Shown piece after piece: positions 4,209 to 11,140 of a stretch of 64,000 bases of DNA; positions within the stretch are counted from its first letter, which is position 1, and every line of letters begins with the position of its first letter. A program made the position numbers and the translations under genes. Source of the DNA: a virus (lineage: Duplodnaviria; Heunggongvirae; Uroviricota; Caudoviricetes); the IMG/VR virus record IMGVR_UViG_3300047393_000100, one strand, 5' to 3'. Below the pieces are notes generated by a model that did no database searches, had not been told where the DNA came from, and saw nothing but the letters and a program-made list of their open reading frames with translations.

Positions 4209-5036
4209 ATGAGAATATGGGCATATGTTACTGTCTGGAATGAGGAGAAGATACTCCCATACTATCTAAGACACTATTCTCAGTTTTGTGAAAGAATAAT
4301 AGTCTTAGATAATAATTCAACAGACAACACTCGAGATATTTGCAAGCAATGGCCTATGGTAGAAGTTAGAGAATATAATACTAACAATACATTTAATGAT
4401 TATGTGCATTTAGATTTAAAACACAAATGTATTGAAGAGTCTAAGGGAAACGCAGATTATGTTATAATAGGTGACTGTGATGAATTTATATACCATCCTA
4501 ATATTATTCAATTTTTAAAAGAAAATAATCATCCTGTAATATTTCCCGCTGGTTTTCAGATGGTTTCATATTCATTTCCAACAGGGGAAGGACAAATATA
4601 TGATGAAGTAAAACATGGAGTACCAGATCCATGGTATTCTAAACCTATTCTTATTAATCCAAATAAGGTAAAATCATTAAAATGGATAGAAGGTTGTCAT
4701 GAGGTAGAATTAGATTTAAAGATAGATGGAGAAATACTACATCCAGTTCCAATACAAATTAGGCCAATTGGAGAATGGAATGGACATCCATGGGGAAGAT
4801 GGAAAATGCAATTTGAAATATTAGATACGTATAATGATTTTCCTATAAAACTATTGCATTATAAATTTATGGGTTCAGAATATGTTAGATCTAAATATAT
4901 TCAATATTCTTTTAGAAATAGTAAACAAAATAAAGAAGCTGGATTAGCAAATCATTATGATATTGCAATTGAAGGAAATAATATTGAAAAAGAAATAGAT
5001 ACACTAACAAATAAATCTATTATAGTAAATTGTTAA
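4209..5036 (+). CDS. Glycosyltransferase family 2-like (GT-A)
   Basis: VWNEE..LPY.LRHY, DNNSTD and DxD (DCDEF) motifs; C-terminal LLHYK. Confidence 0.85.
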   Translation: MRIWAYVTVWNEEKILPYYLRHYSQFCERIIVLDNNSTDNTRDICKQWPMVEVREYNTNNTFNDYVHLDLKHKCIEESKGNADYVIIGDCDEFIYHPNIIQFLKENNHPVIFPAGFQMVSYSFPTGEGQIYDEVKHGVPDPWYSKPILINPNKVKSLKWIEGCHEVELDLKIDGEILHPVPIQIRPIGEWNGHPWGRWKMQFEILDTYNDFPIKLLHYKFMGSEYVRSKYIQYSFRNSKQNKEAGLANHYDIAIEGNNIEKEIDTLTNKSIIVNC

Positions 5037-5098
5037 TAACTTTTATAAAAATAATTAGCCAAACATTTTTTTGTTTGGCTTTTTTTAGTTATATTTAC
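5031..5098 (+). promoter_or_regulatory. Host-RNAP (Bacteroidota sigma-A type) early promoter with upstream TGTTAATAAC box
   Basis: TATATTTAC at 5090 resembles the -7 consensus TAnnTTTG; TGTTAATAACTTTT lies 59 bp upstream. Confidence 0.6.
5057..5086 (+). terminator. Rho-independent terminator overlapping an early promoter (near-identical copy at 8922-8950)
   Basis: AGCCAAACA / TGTTTGGCT 9-bp stem followed by a T-tract. Confidence 0.75.
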
Positions 5099-5122: not shown

Positions 5123-5407
5123 ATGGAAGACTTTGATTCTAATGAATTATTTGAAGAAAATAATGAAATTGAAACTATGAAAAAAGAAGCACAAATGGAA
5201 GAAGCGATATATGATTTAAAGTTAAAACTCGCAAATGAGAACTATGTAATGATCGTAGACAATGGTATCGATGTTGCATCCATGCGAAAAAACGGTCTAA
5301 ATATAGATGCATTATTAGTAACCCTTAATGTTATGTTAGATTTATTCATTGAATTAGAGGAATATGAAAAATGTGCAAAGATTAGAGATGTTATTGAACA
5401 AATCTAA
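5123..5407 (+). CDS. Small protein with C-terminal UVR (UvrB/UvrC-like) motif
   Basis: LFIELEEYEKCAKIRDVI. Start reassigned to ATG 5123, downstream of the promoter. Confidence 0.7.
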   Translation: MEDFDSNELFEENNEIETMKKEAQMEEAIYDLKLKLANENYVMIVDNGIDVASMRKNGLNIDALLVTLNVMLDLFIELEEYEKCAKIRDVIEQI

Positions 5408-5441
5408 AATATATAATATATTAATAAATTAATCAAATAAT

Positions 5442-5576
5442 ATGAACGAGGAAATATTAAAAAAAATAGCTGAAACTCTTGATAGAATCGCAGTGTGTAT
5501 GGAAAATAAACAGGCAAGAGACGTAGCTGAAAATAAGAAAAAGTTACAGGAGTCTAAAAAACCATCTACGAAATAA
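5442..5576 (+). CDS. Hypothetical 44-aa helical protein (not in the ORF track)
   Basis: MNEEILKKIAETLDRIAVCMENKQARDVAENKKKLQESKKPSTK fills the gap between a late-type motif and dnaJ. Confidence 0.6.
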   Translation: MNEEILKKIAETLDRIAVCMENKQARDVAENKKKLQESKKPSTK

Positions 5577-5578
5577 AT

Positions 5579-6364
5579 ATGAATTACTATGAAACGCTTA
5601 ATGTTTCACGAGATGCAAGTCAAGAAGATATTAAAAAATCATATAGAAAATTAGTAAAGCAATATCATCCTGATAAAACAGGAGGAGATGATAGCCAATT
5701 TAAAAAAATATCGGAGGCTTACGAAATTTTAAGTAATCCTATTAGCAGGAAAAATCACGATGGACCATCACATCATTCAAATTTAAATGATGCATGGCAA
5801 GATATTTTTAATAGATATGATTTTTCTAATGTATTTGACCAATCATTTGGTAATAATGCAAAGGGCAATGACGTTAGAGTTTCAATAAATATAACAATAG
5901 AGGAAAGTTATGAAGGAACAAGAAGATACATCGATGTCGGTACTGGTGGATTTAATATTAATATACCTAAAGGAATTCAGAATGGCACAAAACTTAAAGT
6001 CCGTGAAAAAGGGCAAAGTCACCCAATTAACTCAAGTGCACCGAAGGGAGATATAATATTTACTGTTAATATTATACACGATATAGATCTAATAGTAAAT
6101 GGACATGATATTTATGTTGACCTTTATTTAGAATGGATTGATATGTTATTAGGTGGAGAATTTGAAATTAAAACTAAAGTACATACTGTTAAAATCAAGG
6201 TACCAGAAGGTTCTCATGATTCTAAAATCCTCAGAGTAGTTGGCAAGGGAATGCCAATATATAACCAAGAAGGATTTGGTAATCTAATGGTAAAACTTAG
6301 AAGTTTACCAGTTAATTTAACAGAAAACCAAATAGAATTACTAAAAAAGATAAAAAATTCATAA
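5579..6364 (+). CDS. dnaJ: DnaJ/CbpA-type co-chaperone (J domain plus C-terminal domain, no zinc finger)
   Basis: NYYETLNV..ASQEDIKKSYRKL..YHPD, KISEAYEILS and C-terminal GKGMP...GNLMV. Confidence 0.92.
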   Translation: MNYYETLNVSRDASQEDIKKSYRKLVKQYHPDKTGGDDSQFKKISEAYEILSNPISRKNHDGPSHHSNLNDAWQDIFNRYDFSNVFDQSFGNNAKGNDVRVSINITIEESYEGTRRYIDVGTGGFNINIPKGIQNGTKLKVREKGQSHPINSSAPKGDIIFTVNIIHDIDLIVNGHDIYVDLYLEWIDMLLGGEFEIKTKVHTVKIKVPEGSHDSKILRVVGKGMPIYNQEGFGNLMVKLRSLPVNLTENQIELLKKIKNS

Positions 6365-6615
6365 TGGATGAATTAGAAGATCACGAATATGACGAAACAA
6401 AATTCATTAAAAAATTACAAGAATCATCGAAGGATGAAATGATGGATTTAATATATAATTCTATAGTAAATGAAAGAATGGGAGCGTTAAAGCATAACGC
6501 ACCTGTCGAGGATAAAATAGAAGGAGTTCAAAAGATTTTAGATTTTTTCAAAGAAAGAGAAGAATATGAAAAGTGTATTGAACTTAAAAAAATAATAGAT
6601 AAACTATCATGTTAA
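6364..6615 (+). CDS. Small protein with C-terminal UVR motif
   Basis: LDFFKEREEYEKCIELKKII. Confidence 0.7.
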   Translation: MDELEDHEYDETKFIKKLQESSKDEMMDLIYNSIVNERMGALKHNAPVEDKIEGVQKILDFFKEREEYEKCIELKKIIDKLSC

Positions 6616-6788
6616 TATCGAAAGTAGAAAATGGAAATATAGAAAAAGCACTTAAAAATCTTAAGCGTAAAGTTTTTTCAACTAAACAAACTCAGGAACT
6701 TAGGGAAAGAAAGGAATTTATAAAACCATCTATTAAAAAAAGAGAAATAATGACAAATGCAAAATACAAGCAGCAGAATATAATATAA
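6609..6788 (+). CDS. rpsU: Ribosomal protein bS21 (not in the ORF track, 59 aa)
   Basis: MLISKVENGNIEKALKNLKRKVFSTKQTQELRERKEFIKPSIKKREIMTNAKYKQQNII matches the S21 pattern IExALxxxKRK...LRxRxxFxKPSxxxR with a Bacteroidota-type MLI start. Confidence 0.92.
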   Translation: MLISKVENGNIEKALKNLKRKVFSTKQTQELRERKEFIKPSIKKREIMTNAKYKQQNII

Positions 6789-6886
6789 TAACATTTTTAT
6801 CCCTGGGAATTAATTCATATATCCATCTAAATATATAATAAAGATAAAGTACGTAATACATTATCTACTAAAAACAAGCAAGAAAG

Positions 6887-7144
6887 ATGGAAGAAGTTAC
6901 AAGAGATGAAAGAGACTCTTTAATGAGATCCAGCTACTACATAATAACTAGAAATTTTACAAAAACTGTTAACAGATTTATTGTATATCAAGATAGCAAA
7001 AATACAATAGATATTCCACATGGAATTGGACAGAGAAGTATGTTTATAGATCTTCTTATAGAGTATTTTGTAGGGTTGGAAGAATACGAAAAATGTGATA
7101 CCTTAAAAAAGTTAAAGGAACTTGTCACTATGGCAGGTGATTAA
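6887..7144 (+). CDS. Small protein with C-terminal UVR motif
   Basis: LIEYFVGLEEYEKCDTLKKL. Confidence 0.7.
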   Translation: MEEVTRDERDSLMRSSYYIITRNFTKTVNRFIVYQDSKNTIDIPHGIGQRSMFIDLLIEYFVGLEEYEKCDTLKKLKELVTMAGD

Positions 7145-7158
7145 ATATACTTAAATTT

Positions 7159-7872
7159 ATGCAACAAAAAAAGACGAATTCAGATCAGACACAGAGCATT
7201 AAAAAAATGTCAGTCAAAGAAGAGGATATTAAACACGTTAATTTAAAAAATAATCAACACGAATACGTCAATCAAATATTAAAAAACGATATAACATTTT
7301 GTTCTGGACCCGCTGGAACTTCAAAAACGTTTACAGCATGTTATACATCACTAAGGTTATTAGCTGAAAAAAAGGTTAAAAAGATAATTTTATGTAAACC
7401 TATCCAAGAATCTGGAGAAAAACTTGGATTCCTTCCAGGCGATATTGCAGATAAAATAGATCCATATATGCAATCATATATTTCTAACTTTAAAAAAATA
7501 GTTGGAAATGAATTAACTGAAAGTTTAATCCACCATGGATTAATAGAATTCAAACCTCTTGCGTTTATGAGAGGTGATACATTTGATGACGCATTTATGA
7601 TTCTTGACGAGGCACAGAATGCAACGTTTAAGCAACTTATGTTATTTACTACAAGAATGGGTAAAAGTTCAAAGGTACTTGTTACTGGAGATATTAGTCA
7701 ATATGATATTCCAAAGGCAAACGCAGGTTTAACTGGATTTATTGAATTAATGCAAGGTATTAATGGTGTTGGACATCATAAATTTTCAAATTCAGATATT
7801 GTTAGAGCTAAAATTCTACAAGAAGTAGTAGGACGATATGATAAATGGATGATCGATAATCCTAATAAATAA
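7159..7872 (+). CDS. phoH: PhoH family ATPase
   Basis: GPAGTSKT, LGFLPGD, AFMRG, ILDEAQN, TRMG and GDISQYD motifs. Confidence 0.95.
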   Translation: MQQKKTNSDQTQSIKKMSVKEEDIKHVNLKNNQHEYVNQILKNDITFCSGPAGTSKTFTACYTSLRLLAEKKVKKIILCKPIQESGEKLGFLPGDIADKIDPYMQSYISNFKKIVGNELTESLIHHGLIEFKPLAFMRGDTFDDAFMILDEAQNATFKQLMLFTTRMGKSSKVLVTGDISQYDIPKANAGLTGFIELMQGINGVGHHKFSNSDIVRAKILQEVVGRYDKWMIDNPNK

Positions 7873-10219: not shown

Positions 10220-11140
10220 ATGGGAGCAAATTATGGATACTGTTGTATCAATCTAACATTAGATAAACAAAAGGGAATCAAAATCGGTAGAGGAATGATT
10301 AAAAAAACATTCCAAGCAAAGGGTATTAAATACGCAGGTGAGTTAGCAGAAGCTAATCTCAAGGATATGATTGAAATTCTTAAATGGAATAATGCAAATG
10401 GAATTACTATGTATCGTATGTCATCTAGTATGTTTCCGTGGAATTCAGAATATGATATCGAAGAATTACCTAACTATATTGCTATCAAATCTTTATTGAA
10501 AACCGCAGGCGATTATGCAACTAAAGTAGGTCAAAGACTTACATTCCATCCAGGTCCTTTTAATATTCTTGCAAGTCCAAATCCAAAGGTAGTTAATGAC
10601 GCTGTATGGGAATTAACACAACATGGAAAGGTATTAGATTTAATGGGATTACCTAGAACACAATATGCTGCGATGAATATTCACGTTGGTGGAACTTATG
10701 GCGATAAAGATTCTGCAATTAAAAGATTTGCAGAAAATTTTAAACTATTACCCGAATGCGCAAGTTCTCGTCTTGTTTTAGAAAATGACGATAAACCAAG
10801 CCAATATGGCGTATTAGATCTTTATGAGATTTACAAATTATGTGGCACTCCAATTACATTTGATTTCTTTCATCATTTTTGTTATGAAGATTCTATGACA
10901 GAAAAGGATGCATTAGAATTATGTGCAACAACATGGCCTAATAATATTAGGCAATTATGTCACTATTCATCCTCCAAGAAACTACACGAAGATAATACGG
11001 TAATCCTAAGAGCACATGCTGATTATCTATATGAATTTATCGAAACATATGGAATGGACCTAGATATCGAAATAGAGGCCAAGGCAAAAGAACTTGCTCT
11101 TATTAAATATCACAAAGAATTTTCTATGATATATAGTTAA
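10220..11140 (+). CDS. uvsE: UV DNA damage endonuclease (UvsE/UVDE)
   Basis: GYCC, YRMSS.MFP, RLTFHPG.F, IHVGG, LVLENDD, DFFHH, HYS, HAD and EAK.KE motifs. Confidence 0.93.
   Translation: MGANYGYCCINLTLDKQKGIKIGRGMIKKTFQAKGIKYAGELAEANLKDMIEILKWNNANGITMYRMSSSMFPWNSEYDIEELPNYIAIKSLLKTAGDYATKVGQRLTFHPGPFNILASPNPKVVNDAVWELTQHGKVLDLMGLPRTQYAAMNIHVGGTYGDKDSAIKRFAENFKLLPECASSRLVLENDDKPSQYGVLDLYEIYKLCGTPITFDFFHHFCYEDSMTEKDALELCATTWPNNIRQLCHYSSSKKLHEDNTVILRAHADYLYEFIETYGMDLDIEIEAKAKELALIKYHKEFSMIYS

What the first reader, a model, noticed from the sequence alone, without database searches (positions are those of the whole stretch)
5123..7144. Three stand-alone UVR-motif proteins interleaved with DnaJ and bS21
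Seen: three otherwise dissimilar 83-94 aa proteins end in L-x-x-F-x-x-x-EEYEKC-x-x-[IL] (5123, 6364, 6887) and flank dnaJ and rpsU. Known: the UVR coiled-coil motif (E[DE][YF]ExAAxxRD) mediates UvrB-UvrC contacts and ClpC middle-domain/McsA interactions. Inference: these could be adaptor mimics whose variable N-termini recruit substrates to host ClpC(P), a proteostasis-hijack module together with DnaJ. Alternatively they could be decoys that block host UvrBC while the phage uses its own UvsE (10220). The invariant Cys in place of Ala suggests a phage-specific subfamily.
Basis: partly seen in the sequence, partly recalled or inferred. Interest (0 to 1): 0.7.

Follow-up and report, generated by a model that had tools for sequence, protein, structure and literature searches.

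The report
Phage EEYEKC hairpin proteins around DnaJ
Three small genes of a large Bacteroidota-type phage end in the same invariant Cys-bearing helical hairpin, a UVR-like module of a very large undescribed phage protein family, and probably serve as docking pieces for the phage's own chaperone and protease machinery, though this is untested.

Summary
Three + strand ORFs (5123-5407, 6364-6615, 6887-7144) carry the exact hexapeptide EEYEKC, and it occurs nowhere else in the six frames of the window. They are interleaved with a zinc-finger-less dnaJ and rpsU in an order kept in 75 of 75 related loci.

Each ends in a predicted helix-turn-helix hairpin. No Pfam UVR match was found. Profile-profile comparison with real UVR domains is only suggestive (P 4e-4 to 8e-3). 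I call the module UVR-like, not UVR.

The module defines about 975 protein clusters, nearly all short proteins. It has no Pfam or PHROG model, and no paper in the library mentions the motif.

New context changes the reading. Related records, and very probably this phage, encode their own N-domain-less ClpC with a genuine UVR middle domain and an IGF loop, plus ClpP. A fourth hairpin paralogue abuts clpP.

A fold of orthologue A from a related record with that phage's ClpC gave weak support (0.39 against 0.00 for controls).

The most likely role is a docking or regulatory hairpin for ClpC-type unfoldases within a phage proteostasis set. The UvrBC-decoy idea has no support.

Other agents of this scan noted the same system on other genomes.

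The parts
5057..5080 (+). Terminator-like hairpin with a T-run between the upstream glycosyltransferase gene and gene A. It suggests that A opens a new transcription unit.
   Evidence: 9-bp stem, 4 GC pairs, T-run; 3 such sites found in the region against 0.4 expected; sequence.
5123..5407 (+). Hairpin protein A (94 aa). A long N-terminal helix packs on the C-terminal EEYEKC hairpin (residues 61-77 and 81-93). It is the most UVR-like of the three (EEYEKCAKIRDVI).
   Evidence: AF2 model with pLDDT 90. Orthologues 49-98% identical.
5442..5576 (+). Small conserved ORF 'sm44' (44 aa) between A and dnaJ. It has no EEYEKC module.
   Evidence: Found in the same position in many related loci. Only weak PHROG hits.
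5579..6364 (+). DnaJ-type co-chaperone with a J domain and C-terminal domains but no zinc-finger domain hit. Its stop overlaps the start of B.
   Evidence: PF00226 1.9e-22, PF01556 5.1e-28; for the overlap.
6364..6615 (+). Hairpin protein B (83 aa). It appears translationally coupled: its ATG overlaps the dnaJ stop and its end overlaps the start of rpsU.
   Evidence: Detected in 68 of 75 spanning loci.
6609..6788 (+). Phage bS21 (59 aa). It is optional in the module, being absent from 18 of 75 related loci.
   Evidence: PF01165 2.5e-12; phrog_21469.
6887..7144 (+). Hairpin protein C (85 aa). The N-terminal part is conserved (SLMRSSYY..TRNFTKTVNRF..IPHG) but poorly modelled. The hairpin spans residues 49-63 and 67-82.
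   Evidence: AF2 model with pLDDT 70. Present in 75 of 75 spanning loci.
7159..7872 (+). PhoH-like ATPase, the conserved downstream neighbour (context only).

Best explanation
A, B and C are three members of a large, uncurated phage protein family. The family is defined by a C-terminal helix-turn-helix hairpin of about 35 residues with consensus h-I-x-[YF]-[FY]-x-E-x-E-E-Y-E-K-C-A-x-L-x-K-I.

The hairpin resembles a UVR motif, with an aromatic residue where UVR helix 1 has Ala and an invariant Cys where UVR helix 2 has its first Ala. It is best read as a common docking element carried by different N-terminal 'heads'.

In this phage lineage (moraphage-like, predicted Bacteroidota hosts) the genes sit inside a phage-encoded proteostasis set. 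That set comprises DnaJ, often Hsp20, and a ClpC-type unfoldase that naturally lacks the adaptor-binding N-domain but keeps a true UVR middle domain and the ClpP-docking IGF loop. It also includes ClpP and a fourth hairpin paralogue abutting clpP.

The most likely mechanism is inferred, not shown. The hairpin would dock on the UVR middle domain of a ClpC-type unfoldase, the phage's own and possibly the host's. It would then either relieve the M-domain-mediated resting state or deliver or mark the variable head and its clients.

Shown here: the family, the fold, the synteny, and the ClpC-ClpP genes in relatives. Inferred: binding, its direction (activator, adaptor or substrate tag), and the role of the Cys.
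For: 1. Motif and family. Exact EEYEKC occurs three times in 2 kb. It is invariant in 120 of 120 listed homologues, which fall into three orthologous groups. A module-only profile finds 975 clusters at E<=1e-3 among 1.84 billion representatives, and Cys is kept in all 147 new top hits.

2. Modularity. The same hairpin ends about 215-aa proteins (some with DUF3846), an LPD38 protein, and begins about 300-aa proteins in other phages.

3. Fold. The AF2 models give helix-turn-helix with the turn at L-E-E. The UvrB C-terminal hairpin superposes on residues 59-94 of A at Z 5.6, rmsd 1.4 A over 36 residues, but this is not discriminating among helical hairpins.

4. UVR likeness. hhalign against an alignment of Pfam-verified UVR segments places EEYEKC on xxFEkAA. 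P is 3.9e-4 for classes A+D+E, with 0 of 100 column shuffles reaching the score. P is 2e-3 for all classes, with 1 of 100 shuffles reaching it.

5. Context. The order Exo-A-(sm44)-DnaJ-B-(bS21)-C-PhoH holds in 75 of 75 spanning loci.

6. Phage ClpCP.
- A 656-aa N-domain-less ClpC has a UVR hit in its M-domain (..DYEKAAKYRD..) and a GAGIGF loop.
- ClpP matches at E 1e-55 to 1e-58.
- Both are present in 10 of 15 trio-bearing records, and 4 of the 5 negatives are cut off just upstream of the trio.
- The ClpC orthologue P0157 lies on a contig of 235,722 bp. That is the same length as the longest contig carrying this window's protein A, and it comes from the same two ENA samples.

7. Fourth paralogue. 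A protein of about 100 aa with a Y-E-x-C variant of the hairpin (ENYEMC, EKYERC and others) sits directly upstream of clpP in 6 of 6 lineages examined.

8. Predicted complex. ClpC residues 1-350 of related record G001 were folded with its own orthologue of A. The verdict was 'weak support': score 0.39, best of 3 controls 0.00. That mark was reached by 58 of 80 solved complexes and 2 of 110 mismatched pairs. At 0.60 or under it was reached by only 7 of those 80 and by both mismatches that passed, so the result is more often wrong than right unless the guess was likely beforehand. Runs agree in at least 91% of contacts and the partner's pLDDT is at least 74.

9. Literature.
- In S. aureus ClpC, F436, R443 and D444 of the M-domain make the head-to-head contacts of the repressed resting state. 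F436 is also needed for MecA binding. Delta-N ClpC stays repressed until the M-domain is mutated (PMC5699869).
- Five UVR-domain proteins with varied other domains were trapped on plastid CLPC1 (PMC8889267).
- Moraphages carry DnaJ, DnaK, Hsp20 and a core 'ClpA' gene, with predicted Bacteroidota hosts (PMC12619734).
Against: - No Pfam UVR match for A, B or C, or for any of 37 orthologues of A, at E<=10. The UVR model scanned over five related phage records hits only ClpC and one other protein.
- The hhalign probabilities are low (5-36%), and for B and C alone P is 0.03 and 0.2-0.4.
- A family HMM scored against real UVR segments scores barely above shuffled sequences, apart from one Bacteroidota 194-aa protein at 10.6 bits against a shuffle maximum of 11.2.
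- The three genes are glued to dnaJ, not to clpC or clpP, which lie 8-29 kb away in relatives.
- One 170-kb record (G015) keeps A-DnaJ-B-bS21-C but shows no ClpC or ClpP, with 105 kb upstream present.
- The R-D pair of the UVR/M-domain motif is kept only in some A proteins; B and C have K-K.
- The complex score is in the weak band, used proteins from a related record and not the window, and no interface was reported.
Confidence: 0.35

Rival explanations
1. The three proteins are modulators or client-specifying cofactors of the phage DnaJ and the host (or phage) DnaK cycle. The hairpin would dock on DnaJ or Hsp70 and not on ClpC.
For: Gene order ties them to dnaJ in 75 of 75 loci. The start of B overlaps the dnaJ stop, so the two are probably co-translated. 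The trio persists in G015 without detectable ClpCP. Weak fold resemblances of A to BAG and GrpE-type helical bundles appear in the lists: 4hwi_B at Z 6.1 but rmsd 9.3; also 9bls_B and 1hx1_B. From my own knowledge, not checked in a paper here: E. coli CbpM is a small modulator encoded next to the zinc-finger-less DnaJ homologue CbpA.
Against: The same hairpin occurs in hundreds of proteins in other contexts: next to clpP, next to ribonucleotide reductase, and fused to LPD38 or DUF3846. The fold matches are within the noise for helical bundles (note).
Confidence: 0.2
2. The hairpin is a recognition tag that makes its bearers substrates of ClpCP. They would be phage proteins degraded on a schedule, not adaptors or regulators.
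For: The module is appended to many unrelated heads, including domains named for polyvalent early proteins (LPD38, DUF3846). The phage encodes a full ClpC-ClpP. The weak predicted contact of A with ClpC fits a tag as well as it fits an adaptor.
Against: Known ClpC degrons are short unstructured tags or phospho-arginine, not folded hairpins (my own knowledge). Four paralogues in fixed positions next to chaperone and protease genes look more like cofactors than clients.
Confidence: 0.12
3. A, B and C assemble with each other through the identical hairpins, for example as a three-hairpin bundle with the three Cys forming a metal or redox site. The complex would have its own function.
For: The three are co-conserved in one transcription direction. 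The motif is identical in all three, as expected for homotypic contacts. There is one invariant Cys per hairpin. UVR hairpins are known to pair with each other: UvrB with UvrC (my own knowledge), and ClpC M-domains head to head (PMC5699869).
Against: Most family members in other phages occur in other numbers and contexts. Two exact copies and one variant are enough in some relatives. This was not tested by folding.
Confidence: 0.1
4. They are decoys of the UvrB-UvrC contact that block host nucleotide excision repair while the phage uses its own UvdE.
For: Only the loose UVR likeness and a UvdE gene 3 kb downstream at 10220-11140.
Against: There is no repair gene in the immediate operon. The neighbours are chaperone, ribosomal and PhoH genes, and the fourth paralogue abuts clpP. 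The best-scoring real UVR segments for the family HMM are ClpC-type or small stand-alone proteins, not UvrB or UvrC.
Confidence: 0.04

Closest known systems
UVR motif (Pfam PF02151): UvrB C-terminus, UvrC, ClpC middle domain
   Same: A helix-turn-helix hairpin of about 35 residues. It has an acidic turn followed by aromatic-E-x-small-small, then a basic residue one turn later. It works as a protein-protein docking element. hhalign puts EEYEKC in register with xxFEkAA. The UvrB hairpin superposes at rmsd 1.4 A.
   Different: It fails the Pfam model. Helix 1 carries Y/F-F/Y where UVR has Ala. The first Ala of helix 2 is an invariant Cys. The R-D pair is mostly K-K or variable. E-E-Y-E-K-C is far more rigid than any UVR consensus.
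Plastid UVR-domain interactors of CLPC1 (CLPF, EXE1/2, UVR2-4; PMC8889267)
   Same: A short UVR-type hairpin attached to varied other domains, in proteins that associate with a ClpC-type unfoldase.
   Different: Those carry true Pfam UVR domains and bind a ClpC that has its N-domain. Here the hairpin is a divergent Cys form, the proteins are phage-encoded, and the cognate ClpC lacks the N-domain. Binding here is only weakly predicted.
[quoted passage not shown]
   Same: A small phage protein proposed to reprogram a ClpC-ClpP protease during infection.
   Different: Gp53 is a 25-kDa protein acting on the host's ClpC in a Gram-positive host. No sequence relation to it was seen here. This lineage brings its own ClpC and ClpP.
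MecA and McsA/McsB adaptors of ClpC, and the engineered delta-N ClpC (PMC5699869)
   Same: Regulation through the M-domain tip (F436, R443, D444). The phage ClpC is a natural counterpart of delta-N ClpC, which stays repressed until the M-domain contact is broken.
   Different: MecA needs the N-domain, which the phage ClpC lacks. A, B and C have no MecA, McsA or McsB domains. The JGI label 'McsA' on one orthologue (P0089) is not backed by zinc-finger motifs, because the protein has a single Cys.

Membership tests
UVR domain (Pfam PF02151) | Match to the Pfam UVR HMM at or above its gathering score (21.5 bits) | tested here: not met
   No UVR hit at E<=10 for A, B or C or for any of 37 orthologues of A. 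In five related phage records the model hits ClpC and one 251-aa protein but not the trio. HMMER filters drop many weak matches, so this shows failure of the model and not absence of homology.
UVR domain (Pfam PF02151) | Two antiparallel helices of about 15 residues joined by a tight turn | tested here: met
   AF2 model of A has helices 61-77 and 81-93 (pLDDT 90). AF2 model of C has helices 49-63 and 67-82. The UvrB hairpin 2nmv_B aligns at Z 5.6, rmsd 1.4 A, 36 residues, which is not discriminating.
UVR domain (Pfam PF02151) | Signature [DE][FY]E-x-A-A-x-x-R-D at the start of helix 2 | tested here: inconclusive
   The aromatic residue and the Glu are invariant. The first Ala is replaced by an invariant Cys. 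The second Ala is kept in classes A, D and E. R-D is kept in only some A proteins; B and C have K-K.
UVR domain (Pfam PF02151) | Profile-profile similarity to verified UVR domains | tested here: inconclusive
   hhalign against 15 cellular UVR segments. A+D+E classes: P 3.9e-4, probability 36%, 0 of 100 shuffles reach the score. All classes: P 2e-3, 1 of 100 shuffles. B alone: 0.03. C alone: 0.2-0.4.
ClpC adaptor or regulator (functional class: MecA, McsB/McsA, Gp53, CLPF) | Physical binding to a ClpC-type unfoldase | tested here: inconclusive
   The predicted complex of G001 ClpC(1-350) with its orthologue of A gave 'weak support': 0.39 against a best control of 0.00. The mark was reached by 58 of 80 solved complexes and 2 of 110 mismatches. 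At 0.60 or under it was reached by only 7 of the 80 and by both passing mismatches. No measurement exists.
ClpC adaptor or regulator (functional class: MecA, McsB/McsA, Gp53, CLPF) | Stimulates or redirects ClpC ATPase activity and ClpCP degradation | not testable with these tools
   Needs biochemistry.
McsA (name given by JGI to orthologue P0089) | N-terminal CxxC zinc-finger repeats plus a UVR motif | tested here: not met
   The A-class proteins have a single Cys and no CxxC. No Pfam or NCBIfam-type McsA domain was seen in the Pfam scans.
ClpC subfamily of Hsp100 (for the phage unfoldase in related records) | Two AAA+ modules, a short UVR-type M-domain, an IGF-type ClpP loop and an N-terminal Clp_N domain | tested here: inconclusive
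   AAA, AAA_lid_9, UVR, AAA_2 and ClpB_D2-small are all hit. A GAGIGF loop is present and the M-domain is short like ClpC, not ClpB. Identity to bacterial ClpC is 45-55%. The Clp_N domain is absent, since the protein starts at the D1 linker, and no split N-domain ORF lies nearby. It is therefore a ClpC-type protein missing one defining domain.

The most novel reading that the evidence does not exclude
The EEYEKC hairpin is a free-standing mimic of the ClpC middle domain. By capping the M-domain tip it would unlock an N-domain-less phage ClpC-ClpP (and perhaps host ClpC) from its resting state. Each variable head (A, B, C, the clpP-adjacent paralogue, and hundreds of others in other phages) would bring a different client set. 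The invariant Cys would act as a redox or metal switch. That would be a new, widespread, phage-specific adaptor system for AAA+ proteases.
Probability: 0.15. Interest if true: 0.85.

Novelty: new variant of a known kind. Interest (0 to 1): 0.6.

Why it matters
Phage control of host and phage protein turnover is poorly understood. Only a few phage factors acting on Clp proteases are known, for example SPO1 Gp53.

Here a whole lineage of large aquatic phages carries a natural 'delta-N' ClpC with ClpP, DnaJ and often Hsp20. It also carries four small proteins that share one rigid hairpin.

If the hairpin is the docking element, two things follow. It would explain how an unfoldase without its adaptor-binding N-domain is switched on and aimed. 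It would also assign a function to an uncurated family of about a thousand protein clusters.

The family also offers a compact, testable system (proteins of about 90 aa) for studying M-domain-based regulation of ClpC.

Tried and rejected
- PHROGs gave no family for A, B or C.
- tblastn of A and C against 50,697 GenBank phage records found nothing. blastn of the region found only the PhoH part in two megaphage records.
- A PDB sequence search with the three-protein profile gave only an insignificant TPR hit.
- Foldseek of model A against the PDB gave nothing at E<=1e-3. The VIA-align wide search gave only generic helical matches with Z at most 6.4. I do not use these as evidence for any fold family.
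- No whole genome is held for the window. Loci from JGI and ENA could not be used as handles.
- The window itself contains no ClpC or 251-aa UVR protein homologue.
- No split Clp_N domain was found in small ORFs around the phage clpC.
- A single weak Clp_N hit (E 0.065, 1 of 37 A proteins) and Rep_fac_C hits (10 of 37, best E 0.015) were judged noise.
- The sigma-70 promoter scan was not above shuffles (22 found against 16.9 +/- 3.0 expected). It is not suited to Bacteroidota-type promoters, so it was not used.
- No paper in the library mentions the motif string.
Full report
**1. Observation**

The region holds seven same-strand ORFs:
- A: 5123-5407 (94 aa)
- a 44-aa ORF ('sm44'): 5442-5576
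- dnaJ: 5579-6364
- B: 6364-6615 (83 aa)
- rpsU (bS21): 6609-6788
- C: 6887-7144 (85 aa)
- phoH: 7159-7872

A, B and C each contain EEYEKC near the C-terminus. A six-frame scan of the 64 kb finds this hexapeptide three times only, all here. From the window's composition 0.0003 are expected, P about 5e-12. Codons under the motif differ at synonymous sites, so this is not a DNA repeat. Elsewhere the three proteins are not alignable with confidence; hhalign between their orthologue alignments rests on the last 25-35 residues. A terminator-like hairpin at 5057-5080 precedes A. The dnaJ stop overlaps the start of B, and the end of B overlaps the start of rpsU.

**2. Family**

A search of 5.8 billion proteins with the three-protein profile returned at least 800 hits, all from metagenomes, on contigs of up to 259 kb. 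The 120 listed hits split cleanly into three orthologous groups (42, 41 and 39 members), and EEYEKC is invariant in all of them. There is no Pfam or PHROG family, no GenBank phage hit, and no paper with the motif.

Longer proteins carry the same hairpin:
- About 215-aa proteins carry it at the C-terminus, some with DUF3846. One sits next to ribonucleotide reductase in a 320-kb phage.
- A 289-aa LPD38 protein carries it.
- About 300-aa proteins carry it near the N-terminus.

A module-only profile of 44 columns, run against 1.84 billion representatives, finds 975 clusters at E<=1e-3. Lengths among the 150 listed hits are 43-313 aa, and Cys is kept in all 147 new top hits, with only rare changes such as EEYERC or EDYEKC. 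The hairpin is therefore a mobile domain of a large uncurated phage family.

**3. Fold and UVR likeness**

AF2 gives A (pLDDT 90) a long helix (6-47), a short helix (51-56) and a hairpin (61-77, turn L-E-E, 81-93). C (pLDDT 70) has the same hairpin at 49-63 and 67-82. Foldseek finds nothing significant. The wide structural search lists the UvrB C-terminal hairpin (Z 5.6, rmsd 1.4 A, 36 residues) among many equal helical matches, which is consistent but not diagnostic.

The Pfam UVR model does not match A, B or C, or any of 37 orthologues of A.

To test remote likeness I collected 21 segments that the Pfam UVR model does hit in bacterial genomes and related phage records and ran hhalign:
- The register is the expected one, with EEYEKC on xxFEkAA.
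- A alone gives P 0.007-0.008.
- All three window classes together give P 0.003-0.004.
- All five architectures give P 0.002.
- Classes A+D+E give P 3.9e-4 (probability 36%).
- The observed scores exceeded all 60 column shuffles in the first control run. In the second run they exceeded all 100 shuffles for classes A+D+E and all but one of 100 for all classes.
- B alone (0.03) and C alone (0.2-0.4) are weak.

A family HMM scored against single UVR segments is near noise, except for one 194-aa Bacteroidota protein ending ..EKEDYEKAAIIRDII...

Verdict: UVR-like, possibly a divergent branch, but not a demonstrated member.

**4. Context in relatives**

In 75 loci that span Exo to PhoH, all have A, DnaJ and C. 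B was detected in 68 of the 75 and bS21 in 57. Some add Hsp20 just upstream. The trio is thus tied to dnaJ, and bS21 is optional.

**5. The phage's own ClpC-ClpP**

Scanning five large related IMG/VR records with the UVR model hit a 656-aa ORF in each. Its features are:
- It contains AAA, AAA_lid_9, UVR, AAA_2 and ClpB_D2-small domains.
- It is 45-55% identical to bacterial ClpC.
- It starts at the D1 linker, so it has no Clp_N domain.
- It has a short ClpC-type M-domain (..DYEKAAKYRD..).
- It has a GAGIGF ClpP-docking loop, which the ClpB homologues lack.

A ClpP gene (E 1e-55 to 1e-58) lies 2-3 kb downstream in all five records.

The orthologue P0157 sits on a contig of 235,722 bp. That is the same length as the longest contig carrying this window's protein A, and both were found in ENA samples ERZ27275068 and ERZ27275042. 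This phage therefore very probably has both genes, upstream of the window.

Of 15 trio-bearing records, 10 have ClpC and ClpP. Four of the five without them are cut off less than 17 kb upstream of the trio. The fifth, G015 (170 kb), lacks both although 105 kb upstream is present, yet it keeps A-DnaJ-B-bS21-C.

**6. Fourth paralogue**

In the window's lineage (L194) and in G001-G005, a gene of about 100 aa directly upstream of clpP ends in a variant hairpin:
- FYIEKENYEMCTRIK
- FFKERENYEKC
- YFLEIEEYETC
- YYKEQEEYEAC
- FYTFHEKYERC

The residues kept in all four paralogues are aromatic...Y-E-x-C.

**7. Binding test**

ClpC(1-350) of G001 was folded with G001's own orthologue of A (49% identical to the window's A), each with an alignment. 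The verdict was 'weak support': score 0.39 (runs 0.39, 0.44, 0.37), best of 3 controls 0.00.

Calibration of that mark:
- It was reached by 58 of 80 solved complexes and 2 of 110 mismatched pairs.
- At 0.60 or under it was reached by only 7 of those 80 and by both mismatches that passed.
- Such a pass is more often wrong than right unless the guess was likely beforehand.

Runs agree in at least 91% of contacts, the partner's pLDDT is at least 74, and no interface was given.

**8. Mechanism**

In S. aureus ClpC, the M-domain tip residues F436, R443 and D444 make the head-to-head contacts of the repressed resting state. F436 is also needed for MecA binding, MecA needs the N-domain, and delta-N ClpC stays repressed until the M-domain is mutated (PMC5699869).

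A natural delta-N ClpC therefore cannot use MecA-type adaptors and would need another way to be unlocked and aimed. A free hairpin whose helix 2 reads E-Y-E-K-C-A-K-I-R-D could cap the M-domain tip.

Plastid CLPC1 traps five UVR-domain proteins with varied other domains (PMC8889267). This is a precedent for the pattern 'one hairpin, many heads'.

I therefore rank 'ClpC-docking hairpin within a phage proteostasis set' first at 0.35. The rivals are:
- DnaJ/DnaK cofactors: 0.2
- degradation tags: 0.12
- a hetero-oligomer of the three: 0.1
- UvrBC decoys: 0.04

The rest is unassigned. The invariant Cys is unexplained. It may pack against the helix-1 aromatic residues, but its absolute conservation suggests a redox, metal or contact role.

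**9. Comparison and novelty**

The lineage matches the 'moraphages', which have DnaJ, DnaK, Hsp20, a core ClpA-like gene, PhoH and predicted Bacteroidota hosts (PMC12619734). That paper does not mention the hairpin proteins or UVR.

The closest functional analogue is SPO1 Gp53 acting on host ClpC (PMC6873191), but it is unrelated in sequence.

I class the finding as a new variant of a known kind: a UVR-type docking hairpin in a Clp context. Other agents of this scan reached a similar reading on other genomes. I re-tested their claims here and did not rely on them.

Noticed in passing
window 5442-5576: A conserved 44-aa ORF between A and dnaJ (..ILKKIAETLDRIAVCMENKQ..). It is found at the same place in many relatives, sometimes extended to 64-69 aa. 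It has no EEYEKC module and no family assignment.
   Followed up: partly
window 5579-6364: The phage DnaJ has a J domain and C-terminal domains but no zinc-finger domain hit. It is a class-B or CbpA-like architecture, not a full DnaJ.
   Followed up: partly
window 6609-6788 and related loci: bS21 is missing from 18 of 75 otherwise syntenic loci, so it is an optional insert between B and C.
   Followed up: yes
L092:844-1596 (IMG/VR record G001): A 251-aa phage protein has a genuine Pfam UVR domain at its C-terminus (..ADENFERAAELRDAI..). It has no homologue in the window.
   Followed up: partly
G012:C1:63273-66876 and L093 (G003): The phage clpC is split into two pieces about 1.6 kb apart in one record, which may be an inserted element. 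In another record it is frameshifted or broken (525-aa open frame).
   Followed up: no
L194:20389-20973 (- strand): A second, small J-domain protein (194 aa, PF00226 1.7e-6) is encoded about 8 kb downstream of clpC in the window's lineage. Thymidylate synthase lies between clpC and the fourth hairpin gene.
   Followed up: no
L207/L208:6001-6645: In a 320-kb phage, a 214-aa EEYEKC protein with a weak DUF3846 match lies between ribonucleotide reductase and a UvrD-type helicase, with Hsp20 nearby. This context is unrelated to dnaJ.
   Followed up: partly
L001:1628-2026, L007:2134-2529: An Hsp20 gene sits just upstream of A in some relatives. It is absent from this window, where a glycosyltransferase (4209-5036) occupies that place.
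   Followed up: no
L191 (Saprospiraceae genome G007:C10:4765-4857): A 194-aa Bacteroidota protein ends in a UVR domain that is the closest real UVR to the hairpin of protein A (EKEDYEKAAIIRDII against ELEEYEKCAKIRDVI).
   Followed up: no
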